64,000 nucleotides of DNA, from the NCBI GenBank assembly GCA_048937405.1, contig JBHLNF010000001.1, forward strand, positions 384,001-448,000, given 5' to 3'. Below the pieces are notes generated by a model, which saw nothing but the letters and a program-made list of their open reading frames with translations, was not told where the DNA came from and did not search any database. Below are positions 42,204 through 49,058 of this stretch, piece after piece (position 1 is the stretch's first letter; each line of letters begins with the position of its first letter). The DNA comes from Promethearchaeota archaeon. GTDB lineage: Archaea; Asgardarchaeota; Lokiarchaeia; Sigyniarchaeales; SOKP01. Position numbers and translations under genes: made by a program.

Positions 42204-43018
42204 TTATACCCATTCTTCTTTTAAAATATTTCCTTTTATACCTACGACAACTAATTTAATTGGAACTTTTCTACTTGCTCGTTTAGTCGCTTCTTGAGCT
42301 AAAGCTAATAGACCAGAACAACAAGGAACTTCCATAATAACAACTGTAAGTGTATTTATTTTTGCATCATCAATTAGAGTCTTTATTTTTTCTATATACA
42401 CTTCTTTGCCTTGGTCGAGTTTGGGACAAGCTATTGCGATTGACTTTTGTTTCATGAAATCTCTATGAAAATCCCCATATGAAAATCCTACACAATCTGC
42501 TGAAAGCAATACATCAGCTCCTTGGTAATAAGGTGCTCGAGGATTAATTAAATGCATTTGAACAGGCCATTGTCTTAACGCAGAAGGGATTGTTCCTGAT
42601 ATTTCTGTTTGTGTTTCTGGTCCCTCAAAAACCATTGTTTGAGCAGAAGGACAACCACAATGAGAGTTATTATCAGAAAGAATTTCCTGCATTTGTCCCA
42701 TTTTAGTTTTTTCATTTTGTTTCATAGATTCTAAATGTTTCTCAACAGCCTCCTCATCAAATTCTAAAGCTTCCCTTTCAATTATTTCAAGTGCCCCCTC
42801 AGGACAACCAGAAATGCATGCTCCAAGTCCATCACAGAAAACGTCGTTTATTACCCTCGCTTTTCCGTCGATAACTGCGAGCGCGCCTTTTATGCTATAT
42901 AAATCATTCTTTATATTACTGCACAGTCGACTACGCAATTACCACATCCAGTACATAGATCTTCATCAATCTTGATTATTTTTCTTTTTAATAATTTTTG
43001 TTGTTTTACTTCAGTCAT
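42204..43018 (-). CDS. 4Fe-4S ferredoxin-domain protein (FrdX-like), split gene: exon 1 43018..42919, exon 2 42889..42204, 261 aa when joined
   Basis: Exon 1 MTEVK...IKIDEDLCTGCGNCVVDCA joins EGALAVIDGKA...CDGLGACISGCP...QWPVQ...ACPKLD...MEVPCC; joined length 786 nt is in frame. Confidence 0.9.
42890..42918 (-). other. Predicted 29-nt BHB-type intron (UAAUAUAAAGAAUGAUUUAUAUAGCAUAA)
   Basis: GUGC/GCAU 4-bp helix, bulges AG|U and AA|A, internal AUAUAAA/UUUAUAU stem; in-frame UAA inside; excision gives GCA GAA GGC. Confidence 0.85.
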
Positions 43019-43053: not shown

Positions 43054-43068
43054 TTTCGAACATGTTCA
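43054..43068. promoter_or_regulatory. Operator-like site TTTCGAACATGTTCA (palindromic core GAACATGTTC)
   Basis: About 35 nt upstream of the split 4Fe-4S gene; exact reverse complement occurs at 47025..47039. Confidence 0.65.
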
Positions 43069-43134: not shown

Positions 43135-44502
43135 TTAAGATTTGATATAATAATCATATTTTTTTTTAATCAATATAGCAATGGTTACACTTAACACTGC
43201 AACAATCAGGACTAAAATATAACCTGGAATTTCAGAACTTGGTGTAGCGAGTCCCCCATCTGTAATAATCCAAGAAAAGTTAGTAATGATAAATTGTTTT
43301 GCATTTTCGGAAGCATTGCTATATTTTGAATTACCTGCATTAAAGTTTACGTTAGGTTGTAAGGGTAATTGCGACCAGCCTAATAATAAATTATCATAGT
43401 TGGATGTTGACAATTTAACTTTATAGAACATATCTGTCATATCTGTCACTCTCGAAACATTCCAGCTACCGAGGGGCTGGTTGAATGAAGACGTCCAGGA
43501 GAACATGTAAGCCATATTTGTCACTCTTGAAACGTTCCAGTTATCGAGGGGCTGGTTAAATGAAGTATCTGAAAACATAGATTCCATATTTGTCACTCTC
43601 GAGACATCCCAATTATTGATGGGTTGGTTAAATGAATCAGCTGATAGGAACATCCCTTGCATATTTGTCACGATCCAGACATCCCAGTCACTGATGGGCT
43701 GGTTGAATGAATTAGCCATGTAAAACATAAGTTCCATGTCATTTACGCTCGAAACATCCCAACTTCCGATCGGCTGGTTGAAGGAATCGGCCCCCCGAAA
43801 CATAGCACTCATATCTCTAACACTTGAGACGTCCCAGCTTCCGATGGGTTGGTTGAAGGAATGAGCATTATAGAACATATTACTCATGTCTGTTACATTC
43901 GAGACATCCCATCCGTTCATACTATCACTATCACCGAGATTAGGGCAATACCAAAAAGCTCCATGTAATATAGTAGTCCCCCTTAAATCCAAATTATCAG
44001 TTGCAGTAAGTTCTAGATTTTTACAACCATAAAAATAATGCCCCGAATTTCCTAATCGTAAAGATCCCCATTGTTTGATATCAATTATCTTTAACCGATC
44101 TCCTTCATCATTAAAACACCACCCAATAATCATTCCTGTGATCGTAATGGTGTAAACCCCTTCTGATGCATACGTATGTAAAATGTTAGGGTCATTGAAA
44201 AGCGTGATTAGATCGCTGTTTCCATCGCCCCAAAAAACTGTAAAATCATAGTTACCATCCCATTGTAGTGGTAATTTCACTTGATTACTGTTGCTGGAAT
44301 CCGAGCTTGTCTTTGTTGTATCCCAGACTGATATAAAATCCATTGGATCTGATGTAATAGGTTTAAGAAATTCACATTTAGTAGTTATTAGCTTTTGCTC
44401 GTGAAATAGATATGTAAATACCGAAAAGGTCACAATTGTCAAAGAAAATAATATTATCGTTGCACTTAATTTAACTGATTTGAATTTCATTAATCTAAAC
44501 AC
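43135..44502 (-). CDS. Surface protein with PKD-like domain, DUF285 repeats and IPGY-TM-basic C-terminal anchor
   Basis: VFWGDG...HTY; repeats FNQPIGSWDVSSVxDMxxMF; EIPGY + TM + KKK. Confidence 0.9.
   Translation of the reverse strand: MFRLMKFKSVKLSATIILFSLTIVTFSVFTYLFHEQKLITTKCEFLKPITSDPMDFISVWDTTKTSSDSSNSNQVKLPLQWDGNYDFTVFWGDGNSDLITLFNDPNILHTYASEGVYTITITGMIIGWCFNDEGDRLKIIDIKQWGSLRLGNSGHYFYGCKNLELTATDNLDLRGTTILHGAFWYCPNLGDSDSMNGWDVSNVTDMSNMFYNAHSFNQPIGSWDVSSVRDMSAMFRGADSFNQPIGSWDVSSVNDMELMFYMANSFNQPISDWDVWIVTNMQGMFLSADSFNQPINNWDVSRVTNMESMFSDTSFNQPLDNWNVSRVTNMAYMFSWTSSFNQPLGSWNVSRVTDMTDMFYKVKLSTSNYDNLLLGWSQLPLQPNVNFNAGNSKYSNASENAKQFIITNFSWIITDGGLATPSSEIPGYILVLIVAVLSVTIAILIKKKYDYYIKS
43430..43920 (-). 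repeat. About 6-7 intragenic tandem repeats of about 75 nt (DUF285 units)
   Basis: Recurring ggttgaa/ggttaaa...gagacatccca-like units; boundaries approximate. Confidence 0.8.
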
Positions 44503-45043: not shown

Positions 45044-46948
45044 TTAAATACCTAATTTTCTCCTATTCTTTTCAATGTGAGTTAACATCGCATCTACAGC
45101 GTGAATTGGATCAGTTTCGACATGTAAAATTCCACCTGTTAAATCTTTGCAATCTTCAGTTAGAAGTTTTACTAAATCAGCACCTCCAGTAACTGTAGGT
45201 ATTGGATTGACATAAGTATATAGACCAAACGCTAGGGCAAATATTGCATCGATCGTCGCTTTTTGTTCCATGTATTCTGGAGCCGCAGCTATTACTGGTA
45301 AATCAGGAATTGGTACACCACCAAGTGCTGCAGAAATTATTCCTATCAAATCAGCAACTCTTCCTGTATCTGTACATGTTCCGTAGCTAAGAACAGGGGG
45401 AATTCCTAATTTTTCACAAACTGCTTTTAAACCAGGACCTGCCAATTCCTTTGCTTCTGGTAAACATAATCCTCCTACTTGCAATGCCCCATTTCCACAA
45501 CCCATTGATAATACCAAGACATCTCTTTTGATTAATTCTTTAGCTACTTGAATTGTATGCACGTCTTGTCCATAATCCCTAAGCGTTGTGCAGGATACCA
45601 GTCCTGCTACACCTCGTATGGTACCATTCTTAATTACTTCGAGCAATGGTTCAAGTGTACCTCCAAGAGCAGTAAGTATACTCTCACTAGAAAAACCCAC
45701 GACCGCTTCATTTAAATCTAATCCTGTTATAGGTTCAATATTTGCTTTACGCTCTTTAAAATTATCAATCGCCATTTGTAGTAATGTCGCGGCTTGTTCT
45801 TCAGCTTTATCTGGCTTATAATCTACCCTTTCAGTAATACCTTCAAAAGCTACAACTTCAGAAACTGGAACTAGTTTGAATTTATATTTCTCTGCATATA
45901 TAGGATCAATTGGCATACAACAATTCATATCACAGATAAATGCATCAATACAACCACTTGCCAAAATCGCCTCTTGCATTATCCAATTTCCTGTAAATCC
46001 ATAAAAAACGTCATCCATTTCCCATCTTTGTATCATTTCTTGTCCAGTCTCGATATTTGCAATTATTCTCAATCCTTTTGCACCAACTGCTTTTGCTTTT
46101 TCTTGCCATTCAGACTTTCTAGCCAGTTGGACCATCGCAAATCCTAAAAATGGTTCATGCCCATTTGGAAGAATATTTACATAATCAGGATCTAATACAC
46201 CTAGGTTAACTCTCATTTTATGTGGTCTTGGAATATTGAATAAGATATCTTGAGTAAATTCATTAACAATTTGACTTTGATATGCCATTGCTATCCCTAA
46301 TCTCATAGCCTTGAGGGCTAAACTTGCATAATATCCATCTACATTTGTTAGACAAGAGCTTGTTGAAAACATCATTTCACTATATAATCCGCCAGGAAAA
46401 ATTCCTAATTTTCTCCATACCTCCTGTCTTTCTTTCGGTGCTAGTTTCTCAACAATTTTGCTTTTCTCATCATAAGGGATATTAAAATCTTCCTTTACAA
46501 AATAATATAGTCTTAGAGCAATATCTTTTTCTTGACCAGACGTGTCTAAACCAAGACGTTCAGCAAAAACTTTTAGTTTCTCAGGTTCGGAGATTTTAAA
46601 TGGGGTTTTACCCTCTACTGTAGCTTTTAAGGTTTTCAAAGTTGTTTCAGTATGATAATGGTAAGTAGATGCTCCCATAACATTCCTAAGAAGCATCATA
46701 CGCATTGCCATACCATCTGCTGTAATTCCACAGACTCCACGTTTATCTATTGATGAATCTGCTCTACAAGGACCATTTGAACATAGATCACAACGTGCAC
46801 CTTTTAAACAAAATGGACATCGTTTATCGGGATCTCCTCCAAATCCCTGTGCTTCAAAACGATCCCAAATATTATTCATACCATCTTTTTTAATCCTTTC
46901 ATAAACTTTTTGGACGGATTTATGATAAGAGATTCTATCATCTTCCAT
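45044..46948 (-). CDS. cooS: Ni-CODH family catalytic subunit with atypical C-cluster ligands
   Basis: CDLCSNGPC...GVCG B-cluster, NGHEP, DMNC, VSCT, MGCG, GTCTD, EQKA. Confidence 0.92.
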   Translation of the reverse strand: MEDDRISYHKSVQKVYERIKKDGMNNIWDRFEAQGFGGDPDKRCPFCLKGARCDLCSNGPCRADSSIDKRGVCGITADGMAMRMMLLRNVMGASTYHYHTETTLKTLKATVEGKTPFKISEPEKLKVFAERLGLDTSGQEKDIALRLYYFVKEDFNIPYDEKSKIVEKLAPKERQEVWRKLGIFPGGLYSEMMFSTSSCLTNVDGYYASLALKAMRLGIAMAYQSQIVNEFTQDILFNIPRPHKMRVNLGVLDPDYVNILPNGHEPFLGFAMVQLARKSEWQEKAKAVGAKGLRIIANIETGQEMIQRWEMDDVFYGFTGNWIMQEAILASGCIDAFICDMNCCMPIDPIYAEKYKFKLVPVSEVVAFEGITERVDYKPDKAEEQAATLLQMAIDNFKERKANIEPITGLDLNEAVVGFSSESILTALGGTLEPLLEVIKNGTIRGVAGLVSCTTLRDYGQDVHTIQVAKELIKRDVLVLSMGCGNGALQVGGLCLPEAKELAGPGLKAVCEKLGIPPVLSYGTCTDTGRVADLIGIISAALGGVPIPDLPVIAAAPEYMEQKATIDAIFALAFGLYTYVNPIPTVTGGADLVKLLTEDCKDLTGGILHVETDPIHAVDAMLTHIEKNRRKLGI

Positions 46949-47024: not shown

Positions 47025-47039
47025 TGAACATGTTCGAAA
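47025..47039. promoter_or_regulatory. Operator-like site TGAACATGTTCGAAA
   Basis: Lies between divergent cooS and oxidoreductase genes; reverse complement of 43054..43068. Confidence 0.65.
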
Positions 47040-48888: not shown

Positions 48889-49058
48889 TTGGCAAAATGG
48901 GAATGTCAAGCTTGTGGATATGTTTATGATGAAGAAGCTGAAGGTACAAAATTTGAAGATTTACCAGACGATTGGACTTGTCCTGTATGTGGCGTAGTCA
49001 TGATAGGATCTCCCATTATGGCGTAAGAAAGGACATGTTCGAGAAGATTGAAGGTTAA
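48889..49058 (+). CDS. Rubredoxin, split gene: exon 1 48889..48997, exon 2 49027..49058, 46 aa when joined
   Basis: Joined product [46 protein letters not shown]; TTG start. Confidence 0.92.
48998..49026 (+). other. Predicted 29-nt BHB-type intron (UCAUGAUAGGAUCUCCCAUUAUGGCGUAA)
   Basis: GCGU/GCGU 4-bp helix (2 GC + 2 GU), bulges AG|U and AA|G, internal CAUGAU/AUUAUG stem; excision gives GTA GGA AAG. Confidence 0.85.

What the first reader, a model, noticed from the sequence alone, without database searches (positions are those of the whole stretch)
42860..42945. Intron 1: splits the first 4Fe-4S motif region of a FrdX-like gene and has a paired exon-exon stem
Minus strand reads TGC GTA GTC GAC TGT GCA G|TAATATAAAGAATGATTTATATAGCATAA|AA GGC GCG CTC GCA GTT ATC. 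Unspliced, it stops at CA-V-I-*. Spliced, it gives CTGCGNCVVDCAEGALAVID. The structure is a GUGC/GCAU helix, two 3-nt bulges and a 7-bp intron stem opened by an A-A mismatch. The flanking exons can also pair over 10 bp (GGUAAUUGCG/CGCAGUUAUC, two G-U pairs) and use GC-rich codons that are rare in this AT-rich DNA, suggesting selection on RNA structure.
Basis: partly seen in the sequence, partly recalled or inferred. Interest (0 to 1): 0.92.

Follow-up and report, generated by a model that had tools for sequence, protein, structure and literature searches.

The report
tRNA-type mini-intron in Asgard ferredoxin gene
The only copy of an iron-sulfur protein gene in this Asgard (Loki-type) archaeon is broken by a 29-base insert shaped like an archaeal tRNA intron, and comparison with over 100 related genes indicates it is cut out of the messenger RNA, which papers confirm for only one archaeal protein gene (cbf5).

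Summary
On the minus strand a 261-codon Fe-S protein gene (2x[4Fe-4S] domain plus AF_0155 domain) is interrupted at 42918..42890 by 29 nt that cause a frameshift and a stop.

- **Exact deletion length:** every orthologue fetched has either one Glu codon at this point or the insert (29 nt; 30 nt in one). Cutting after the second nucleotide of each 3-nt bulge of a canonical bulge-helix-bulge (BHB) motif rebuilds that invariant Glu in all 13 insert-bearing alleles.
- **The gene is alive:** both exons are under purifying selection (pN/pS 0.23 and 0.19).
- **RNA structure is selected:** all 25 predicted pairs hold, and the only changes are wobble-compatible. The exon flanks keep fixed GC-rich synonymous codons that intronless alleles coding the same peptide do not use.
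- **Machinery is present:** the genome has two EndA paralogues and RtcB.
- **Not alone here:** a second 29-nt BHB intron sits 6 kb away in rubredoxin.
- **Patchy distribution:** insert-bearing alleles do not form one clade (AU p = 1.5e-66).

No RNA data exist for this gene, so splicing is inferred. This scan has already noted the same class in at least 126 other genomes. In print only cbf5 is confirmed. Verdict: real, a new member of a known kind.

The parts
42919..43018 (-). Exon 1: Met1 to Ala33 plus the first base (G) of the Glu34 codon. It carries the CxxCxxCxxxC motif of the first [4Fe-4S] cluster.
   Evidence: Translation. Pfam Fer4_6 27.7 bits, above the cut-off of 25. pN/pS 0.23 among insert-bearing alleles.
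42890..42918 (-). 29-nt BHB intron: U, a 7-bp AU hairpin with a 6-nt loop, GCAU, AA.
   Evidence: Present in 13 loci, with a 30-nt variant in L125.
42204..42889 (-). Exon 2: the last two bases (AA) of the Glu34 codon, then Gly35 to Val261 and the stop. It carries the second Cys motif and the AF_0155 (PF27217) domain.
   Evidence: pN/pS 0.19.
42921..42924 (-). Central helix H, 5' strand (GUGC, in exon 1). It pairs with 42892..42895.
   Evidence: Four pairs, invariant in 13 loci.
42892..42895 (-). Central helix H, 3' strand (GCAU, in the intron).
42918..42920 (-). Bulge 1 (AGU). The predicted 5' cut lies between G42919 and U42918.
   Evidence: The second/third-nucleotide rule (PMC2738675). The third nucleotide varies U/A.
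42889..42891 (-). Bulge 2 (AAA). The predicted 3' cut lies between A42890 and A42889.
   Evidence: The middle nucleotide varies A/C/U while the junction codon stays Glu (GAA or GAG).
42897..42916 (-). Inner helix h' (7 bp, 42910..42916 with 42897..42903) and its 6-nt loop (42904..42909).
   Evidence: The stem is invariant and the loop varies at several positions.
42925..42929 (-). Outer helix h, 5' strand (CGACU). It forms 2+2 pairs with 42884..42888 around an A-G mismatch.
   Evidence: Two pairs vary by wobble only.
42884..42888 (-). Outer helix h, 3' strand (AGGCG, in exon 2).
42934..42943 (-). Distal exon-exon helix, 5' strand (GGUAAUUGCG).
   Evidence: Ten pairs, 100% kept, five with one-sided wobble changes. 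The block of conserved nucleotides ends at this helix.
42870..42879 (-). Distal exon-exon helix, 3' strand (CGCAGUUAUC).
   Evidence: All 14 exon-exon pairs form in every insert-bearing allele, against a mean of 8.4 in 40 intronless ones.
48998..49026 (+). Second 29-nt BHB intron, in the rubredoxin gene: H GCGU/GCGU, bulges AGU and AAG, 6-bp stem.
   Evidence: Removal gives [16 protein letters not shown]. Intronless orthologues in L004 and L006 read CPVCGVGKDMFEKID.

Best explanation
The 29 nt at 42918..42890 are a bulge-helix-bulge (BHB) intron in the pre-mRNA of a 261-aa Fe-S protein. The transcript folds so that exon 1 bases GUGC pair with intron bases GCAU (helix H). H is flanked by two 3-nt bulges, an intron hairpin (h') and exon-exon pairing (h plus a 10-bp distal helix). 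The archaeal splicing endonuclease cuts between the second and third nucleotide of each bulge. In this genome that enzyme is probably an (alpha-beta)2 EndA made from two paralogues. RtcB then joins the exons, which creates the Glu34 codon G|AA and restores the frame, and the intron is released. Shown here: the anatomy, the exact fit to orthologues, purifying selection on both exons, conservation of the pairing, and the presence of the enzymes. Inferred: that cutting and ligation happen in the cell, and which enzymes do it. The simplest reading is constitutive splicing of a tolerated insertion. The insert has been lost or gained repeatedly among close relatives.
For: 1. Exact deletion length. 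Every orthologue locus fetched with both parts aligned has 3 nt (one codon) or 32/33 nt between exon 1 and exon 2, and the junction codon is Glu in 52 of 52 genes.
2. The published cut rule (second/third bulge nucleotide; PMC2738675) rebuilds Glu in all 13 insert-bearing alleles although the bases differ: GAA, GAG in L001, and middle nucleotide of bulge 2 A/C/U.
3. A 30-nt variant (L125) has both exons intact, so indels inside the insert are neutral, as expected for an excised segment.
4. pN/pS is 0.23 for exon 1 and 0.19 for exon 2 among insert-bearing alleles.
5. The 25 pairs are 99.6-100% kept. Seven pairs change on one side only, always to a wobble pair. Slid controls give 28-48%.
6. Third-position identity in the exon flanks is 0.88 among insert-bearing alleles against 0.54 among intronless ones. 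All 14 exon-exon pairs form, against a mean of 8.4. Intronless alleles that code the identical peptide CVVDCAEGALAIIDGK use other synonymous codons.
7. The ferredoxin domain of an intronless orthologue aligns as one piece across the junction to solved structures, residues 8-69.
8. Two EndA paralogues are present, one with the Tyr/His/Lys pattern and one without the His by my reading, and so is RtcB.
9. Independent DNA assemblies bridge the insert without gaps, and this is the only copy in the genome.
10. More inserts of the same architecture occur in this genome: rubredoxin, uppS and rnhB.
Against: There is no RNA evidence for this gene. No compensatory double change supports any pair: all variation is one-sided wobble, and the sequences are closely related. 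The 51-nt core alone folds no better than shuffled sequence (z = +0.4), so stability rests on the exon-exon helices. My genome-wide structural scan found no excess of BHB shapes over a mirror-image decoy, so shape alone is weak evidence and the case rests on the comparative fit. The EndA subunit composition is inferred from two paralogues and was not tested.
Confidence: 0.87

Rival explanations
1. Programmed ribosomal frameshift or bypass. The mRNA keeps the 29 nt and the ribosome shifts into the downstream frame, or hops over the insert as in phage T4 gene 60.
For: The downstream frame is open from 42938, so a shift inside the insert region could fuse the two parts. Authors of the cbf5 work note that its introns were once mistaken for frameshift sites (PMC2738675).
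Against: No contiguous triplet codes the invariant Glu34. A hop or shift would give Lys or Gln, or an about 10-residue insertion (SNIKNDLYSIK-like) inside the ferredoxin fold, and no orthologue has either. I saw no matched take-off and landing codons that would give Glu. The 30-nt variant changes the required shift yet both exons stay intact. Neither frameshifting nor bypass explains why the bulges sit exactly at the two boundaries.
Confidence: 0.03
2. Dead or dying gene. The insert is a disabling insertion and the locus is a pseudogene.
For: Unspliced, the frame stops after 35 codons. Gene callers annotate only a 244-aa remnant in several assemblies.
Against: Thirteen loci whose remaining coding sequence is as little as about 70% identical keep both exons free of stops, with pN/pS about 0.2. 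It is the only copy in a genome scored 100% complete. The insert and its flanks are more conserved than the rest of the gene.
Confidence: 0.03
3. Split gene without splicing. A 35-aa Cys-rich peptide and a separate protein of about 227-244 aa are made and assemble.
For: Both parts are under purifying selection, which a two-protein arrangement would also predict. A TTG start at 42938 opens the downstream ORF.
Against: The break lies inside one 2x[4Fe-4S] domain that is continuous in all other orthologues and in solved structures. The N-terminal extension of the 244-aa ORF is out-of-frame exon 1 plus intron and varies non-synonymously. This reading does not explain the BHB geometry, the exon-exon pairing or the split Glu codon.
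Confidence: 0.04
4. Assembly or sequencing artefact.
For: None found.
Against: Contigs from a second study (X2) and from other samples (X3, X4) bridge the insert with no gaps. It also stands in independent assemblies and metagenome contigs from several projects.
Confidence: 0.01

Closest known systems
BHB intron of the cbf5 (pseudouridine synthase) pre-mRNA in Crenarchaeota (Desulfurococcales, Sulfolobales; Watanabe 2002, Yokobori 2009 = PMC2738675)
   Same: A short intron inside a protein-coding sequence. A BHB-type motif built from exon and intron bases. Predicted cuts between the second and third bulge nucleotides. A host with a hetero-oligomeric EndA. Lineage-specific presence and absence within one gene.
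   Different: Another phylum (Asgard/Promethearchaeota) and another gene (an Fe-S protein of an O2/NO-stress locus). The motif here is canonical, whereas most cbf5 motifs are described as unconventional. It is closed by a 10-bp distal exon-exon helix with fixed synonymous codons. It is one of several such introns in the same genome. cbf5 splicing was shown with cDNA and enzyme assays, and this one is only inferred.
Archaeal pre-tRNA and pre-rRNA BHB introns (EndA plus RtcB pathway)
   Same: The same motif geometry (3-nt bulge, 4-bp helix, 3-nt bulge) and the same predicted enzymes. This genome's tRNA genes are intron-rich: 15 of the 21 that ARAGORN finds.
   Different: The host RNA is a translated message, so folding and cutting must compete with ribosomes, and the exon half of the motif is also constrained by the protein code.
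BHB element in an mRNA 5' UTR of Haloferax volcanii (listed in the search as PMC7714728; not read here)
   Different: That element lies outside the coding sequence. Here excision is needed to make the protein.
HAC1/XBP1 unconventional splicing by IRE1 and the tRNA ligase (my own knowledge)
   Same: A small non-spliceosomal intron is cut out of an mRNA at two stem-loop sites and the exons are joined by a tRNA-type ligase (RtcB in animals). Removal changes the reading frame.
   Different: The nuclease is different (IRE1, not EndA) and so is the motif. That splicing is stress-regulated, and there is no evidence of regulation here.

Membership tests
BHB (EndA-type) intron | [quoted passage not shown] | tested here: met
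   GUGC/GCAU with bulges AGU and AAA. Invariant helix in 13 loci.
BHB (EndA-type) intron | Flanking helices h (exon-exon) and h' (intron) | tested here: met
   h is 2+2 bp plus a 10-bp distal helix, and h' is 7 bp. 99.6-100% of cells are paired.
BHB (EndA-type) intron | Cuts between the second and third bulge nucleotides give the functional junction | tested here: met
   Rule from PMC2738675. The cuts rebuild the invariant Glu and the frame in all 13 alleles and match every intronless orthologue fetched.
BHB (EndA-type) intron | The host encodes a splicing endonuclease able to cut outside the canonical tRNA position | tested here: inconclusive
   Two PF01974 paralogues are present, 103 and 71 bits. 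One has the Tyr/His/Lys pattern and the other lacks the His by my reading, which fits an (alpha-beta)2 enzyme. Assembly and specificity were not tested.
BHB (EndA-type) intron | The host encodes the RtcB ligase | tested here: met
   PF01139 match, 565 bits, full length.
BHB (EndA-type) intron | The intron is absent from mature RNA (spliced cDNA, circular intron) | not testable with these tools
   No RNA run holds this gene.
2x[4Fe-4S] ferredoxin domain plus AF_0155 (PF27217) protein | A continuous ferredoxin domain followed by the AF_0155 domain | tested here: met
   Exon 1 hits Fer4_6 above the cut-off. Orthologues carry Fer4 families plus PF27217. The domain spans the junction in matches to solved structures.
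FrdX (ferredoxin-like partner of hybrid-cluster protein Hcp) | Orthology to delta-proteobacterial or clostridial FrdX, and linkage to hcp | not tested
   A Prismane-family gene lies nearby (45044..46948, and next to the gene in L001). No FrdX reference sequence was compared.
Translational bypass (T4 gene 60 type) | Matched take-off and landing codons that yield the conserved residue | tested here: not met
   No contiguous Glu codon exists. Landing would give Lys or Gln, varying between alleles, at a site that is Glu in 52 of 52 genes.

The most novel reading that the evidence does not exclude
The roughly 76-nt block (intron plus the exon segments that pair around it) may be more than a tolerated insertion. 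One possibility is a convertible cassette that moves between orthologous genes of related Asgard lineages, by gene conversion or reverse splicing. This would explain why insert-bearing alleles are scattered over the gene tree while the block stays 83-100% identical. The other possibility is a regulated splice switch. Two genes of one O2/NO-detoxification neighbourhood (this Fe-S gene and rubredoxin) each carry a 29-nt intron just after a metal-binding Cys motif. A 15-bp palindromic site stands twice here, upstream of this gene and beside the hcp-like gene, so protein output could be gated at the RNA level, as with HAC1/XBP1.
Probability: 0.12. Interest if true: 0.85.

Novelty: new member of a known kind. 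Interest (0 to 1): 0.62.

Why it matters
In the papers I could search, splicing of an archaeal protein-coding message by the tRNA-splicing enzymes is confirmed for a single gene, cbf5, in Crenarchaeota (PMC2738675). Here the same mechanism is very probably needed to make an Fe-S protein in an Asgard archaeon, a member of the archaeal group reported as closest to eukaryotes. The same genome holds at least three more such inserts.

This has a practical consequence. Gene callers truncate these genes: 244 aa is annotated instead of 261, and the ferredoxin domain is lost. Asgard proteomes and metabolic reconstructions are therefore systematically wrong at such sites.

It also offers a clean natural experiment on how an RNA-structure requirement reshapes codon choice in exons, and on how often such introns are lost or gained between close relatives.

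Tried and rejected
- **RNA evidence:** no RNA holder is listed for this stretch, so expression and splicing could not be examined.
- **Spliced-junction search:** a scan of metagenome contigs for the spliced junction with intron-type flanks found nothing. This says little, because the collection is mainly DNA.
- **Genome-wide de novo census:** I scanned for BHB shapes that bridge two open frames. One search timed out. The later versions gave as many hits for a mirror-image decoy architecture as for the real one (for example 4500 against 4535), and a codon-usage score did not separate them. The scan cannot count mRNA introns in this AT-rich genome, and the relaxed rubredoxin motif escaped the strict version.
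- **Checking two other sites:** my simple finder did not recover the zinc-ribbon and rpo10 sites named in earlier notes, so I make no claim on them.
- **Rfam and ARAGORN on the window:** both found nothing.
- **First related-loci call:** it failed because partial rows were in the alignment, and I repeated it with A3.
- **Possible spliced cDNAs:** the 261-278-aa proteins with the peptide GALAIIDGK (P0096, P0100) lie on contigs flanked by genes on the opposite strand and use different synonymous codons, so they are intronless genomic alleles.
- **Lateral transfer against vertical descent of the block:** block differences grow roughly with host-gene divergence (2 to 13 of 77 nt), so neither is settled.

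Full report
**What is in the sequence**

On the minus strand an ORF starts at 43018 (MTEVKQQK...) and runs through a CxxCxxCxxxC motif to ...CVVDCA. It then reads V-I-stop, giving a 35-aa ORF at 42911..43018. A second frame is open from 42938 to 42204 (244 aa). From GALAVIDGK onward it encodes the rest of a 2x[4Fe-4S] domain and a PF27217 (AF_0155) domain. The two parts are separated by 29 nt, 42918..42890.

**Organism and gene**

The nearest proteins are from Promethearchaeota and other Asgard MAGs. Most are 261 aa, which equals 33 + 1 + 227, the two parts plus one residue. The window lies in a 4.47-Mb genome of about 29% GC in 29 contigs, scored 100% complete. That genome holds one copy of the gene. 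The neighbours are redox and stress genes: a Prismane/Hcp-like protein, an FMN reductase, a glutaredoxin-like protein, an HTH_10 regulator and rubredoxin. Relatives also carry a flavodiiron protein and a rubredoxin reductase-like gene.

**The orthologue test**

I located exon 1 and exon 2 by tblastn in all loci fetched: Asgard relatives, bacteria and other archaea down to about 45% identity. Every locus in which both parts aligned has either exactly 3 nt or 32 nt between the end of ...DCA and the start of GAL.... One further locus, L125, has 33 nt. The single codon is Glu in all 52 genes I translated. So the alignment requires removal of exactly the 29 nt (30 in L125).

**Fit to the BHB rule**

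The cbf5 authors state that the endonuclease cuts between the second and third residue of each bulge (PMC2738675). With H = GUGC/GCAU, bulge 1 is AG|U and bulge 2 is AA|A. The joined exons read GCA G|AA GGC, that is Ala-Glu-Gly. No other pair of cut sites in this sequence gives Glu. The rule also holds where the bases differ:
- L001 has AA|AG, giving GAG, which is still Glu.
- L008, L124 and L126 have C or U as the middle nucleotide of bulge 2, which lies in the intron.
- L008 has A as the third nucleotide of bulge 1, which also lies in the intron.

Under a hop or a frameshift the residue would be Lys or Gln and would vary between alleles.

**The gene is alive in insert-bearing lineages**

Thirteen loci carry the insert: the window, L001, L003, L004, L006, L008, L017 and L123-L128. 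They come from several assemblies and metagenome projects. Outside the flanks their coding sequences are 69-100% identical. Both exons are free of stops in all of them. pN/pS is 0.23 for exon 1 (codons 2-25) and 0.19 for exon 2. A 30-nt variant of the insert (L125) leaves both exons intact. Independent DNA contigs from another study (X2) and from other samples (X3, X4) cross the insert without gaps, so it is not an assembly error.

**RNA structure under selection**

- On the alignment of the 86-nt region, the canonical hBHBh' structure (25 pairs) is kept in 100% of cells in 7 loci and 99.6% in 13. The same pairs slid by 1-3 columns give 28-48%.
- Seven pairs vary, always on one side and always to a wobble pair. 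There is no double compensatory change, so the support is compatibility rather than covariation.
- Variation otherwise sits in the loop, the bulges, the A-A mismatch and an internal loop.
- The block of conserved nucleotides ends where the distal exon-exon helix ends.
- Third-codon-position identity in the 16 flank codons is 0.88 among insert-bearing alleles, against 0.61 in the rest of their genes. It is 0.54 among intronless alleles, and 0.36 between the two classes.
- All 14 exon-exon pairs form in each insert-bearing allele, against a mean of 8.4 (range 6-12) in 40 intronless alleles. Flank GC is 0.52 against 0.42, with 0.37 elsewhere.
- A natural control exists. Intronless alleles that code the identical peptide CVVDCAEGALAIIDGK (L131, L135) use other synonymous codons: GGA, GTG, GAT, GGA and GCT or GCC in place of GGT, GTC, GAC, GGC and GCA. 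The nucleotide conservation is therefore not a protein constraint.
- Thermodynamics are modest. z is -2.5 for the 86 nt and +0.4 for the 51-nt core, so the exon helices carry the stability.

**Machinery**

The genome has two PF01974 EndA paralogues of 197 and 200 aa. By my reading the first keeps the Tyr/His/Lys pattern and the second lacks the His, which fits an (alpha-beta)2 enzyme. A preprint reports that arrangement for 44 of 60 Asgard genomes (10.64898/2026.10.13.758758). RtcB is present. ARAGORN finds only 21 tRNA genes in this complete genome, and 15 of them have introns. This agrees with the heavily interrupted tRNA genes described in that preprint.

**Distribution**

On a protein tree built without the flank codons, the 13 insert-bearing alleles need at least 8 changes of state (at least 5 forced by well-supported branches). 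The AU test rejects one clade (delta lnL 184, p = 1.5e-66) (an earlier tree is). Among the 30 same-genus relatives with a full-length match, only two others show the 244-aa open frame typical of the insert. Differences within the 77-nt block rise roughly with host-gene divergence, from 2 to 13 nt. Repeated precise loss of an old intron and repeated gain by conversion both remain possible, and the tree cannot tell gain from loss.

**Other introns of the same kind in this genome**
- **Rubredoxin.** Six kilobases away, on the other strand, the gene breaks after CPVCGV. Removal of 29 nt (48998..49026; H GCGU/GCGU, bulges AG|U and AA|G, 6-bp stem) gives [16 protein letters not shown]. The orthologues in L004 and L006 are intronless and read CPVCGVGKDMFEKID.
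- **uppS and rnhB.** Following leads from earlier notes of this scan, I read both genes directly. A 30-nt insert with an in-frame TAG splits DG|NRRW in uppS. A 29-nt insert (UGGC/GUUA, AG|A, AA|A) splits GIDEAGR|G in rnhB. I checked these two by eye only.

**What is known**

Searches of the paper library found confirmed archaeal pre-mRNA splicing only for cbf5. Introns in other protein genes are described as predicted but unconfirmed (PMC2738675; searches). I found no paper on Asgard mRNA BHB introns. Within this scan the class has been noted before on other DNA, in at least 126 genomes. One follow-up on another genome reports environmental RNA reads that show excision at the predicted sites. 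That is a lead I did not check, and I do not count it as support.

**Verdict**

This is a BHB intron in a protein-coding message of an Asgard archaeon, with confidence about 0.87. It is a new member of the kind known from cbf5. This case adds:
- the exon-codon imprint of the structure, with a matched natural control;
- a length variant of the insert;
- strong evidence for repeated loss or gain;
- a second intron in a neighbouring redox gene.

What is missing is RNA-level proof.

Noticed in passing
window 48998-49026 (+): A second 29-nt BHB intron lies in the rubredoxin gene. Removal restores [16 protein letters not shown]. The orthologues in L004 and L006 lack it although they carry the Fe-S gene intron.
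   Followed up: yes
window 43054-43068 (-) and 47025-47039 (+): An identical 15-bp site, TGAACATGTTCGAAA with a palindromic core, stands 36 nt upstream of the intron-bearing gene's start and again beside the Hcp-like gene. Zero matches are expected by chance. It may be a shared operator.
   Followed up: partly
L129:2130-2200 (-) = G000 C17, uppS: A 30-nt insert with an in-frame TAG splits the catalytic DG|NRRW motif. It folds as a relaxed BHB (AUGG/ACAU with one G-A mismatch, a 7-bp stem).
   Followed up: partly
L130:1470-1500 (+) = G000 C25, rnhB: A 29-nt insert splits GIDEAGR|G of RNase HII. H is UGGC/GUUA and the bulges are AG|A and AA|A.
   Followed up: partly
whole genome G000: ARAGORN finds only 21 tRNA genes, 15 of them with introns of 9-46 nt, in a genome scored 100% complete. 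Many tRNA genes are probably too interrupted to be detected.
   Followed up: no
L014 (JBHLQA010000004.1): A MAG labelled Odinarchaeota carries an allele that nests inside the window's own genus on the gene tree, beside G089. This suggests mis-binning, mislabelling or transfer.
   Followed up: no
L021 and L023 (intronless Promethearchaeota alleles): They have the intron-type 3' flank GGCGCGCTCGCA but no insert. This may be a trace of a precise intron loss.
   Followed up: no
window 43135-44502 (-): A 455-aa repeat protein with a C-terminal membrane anchor (repeated FNQPIxxWDVS motif) sits between the Fe-S gene and the Hcp-like gene. In L001 those two genes are separated only by a 96-aa ORF.
   Followed up: no
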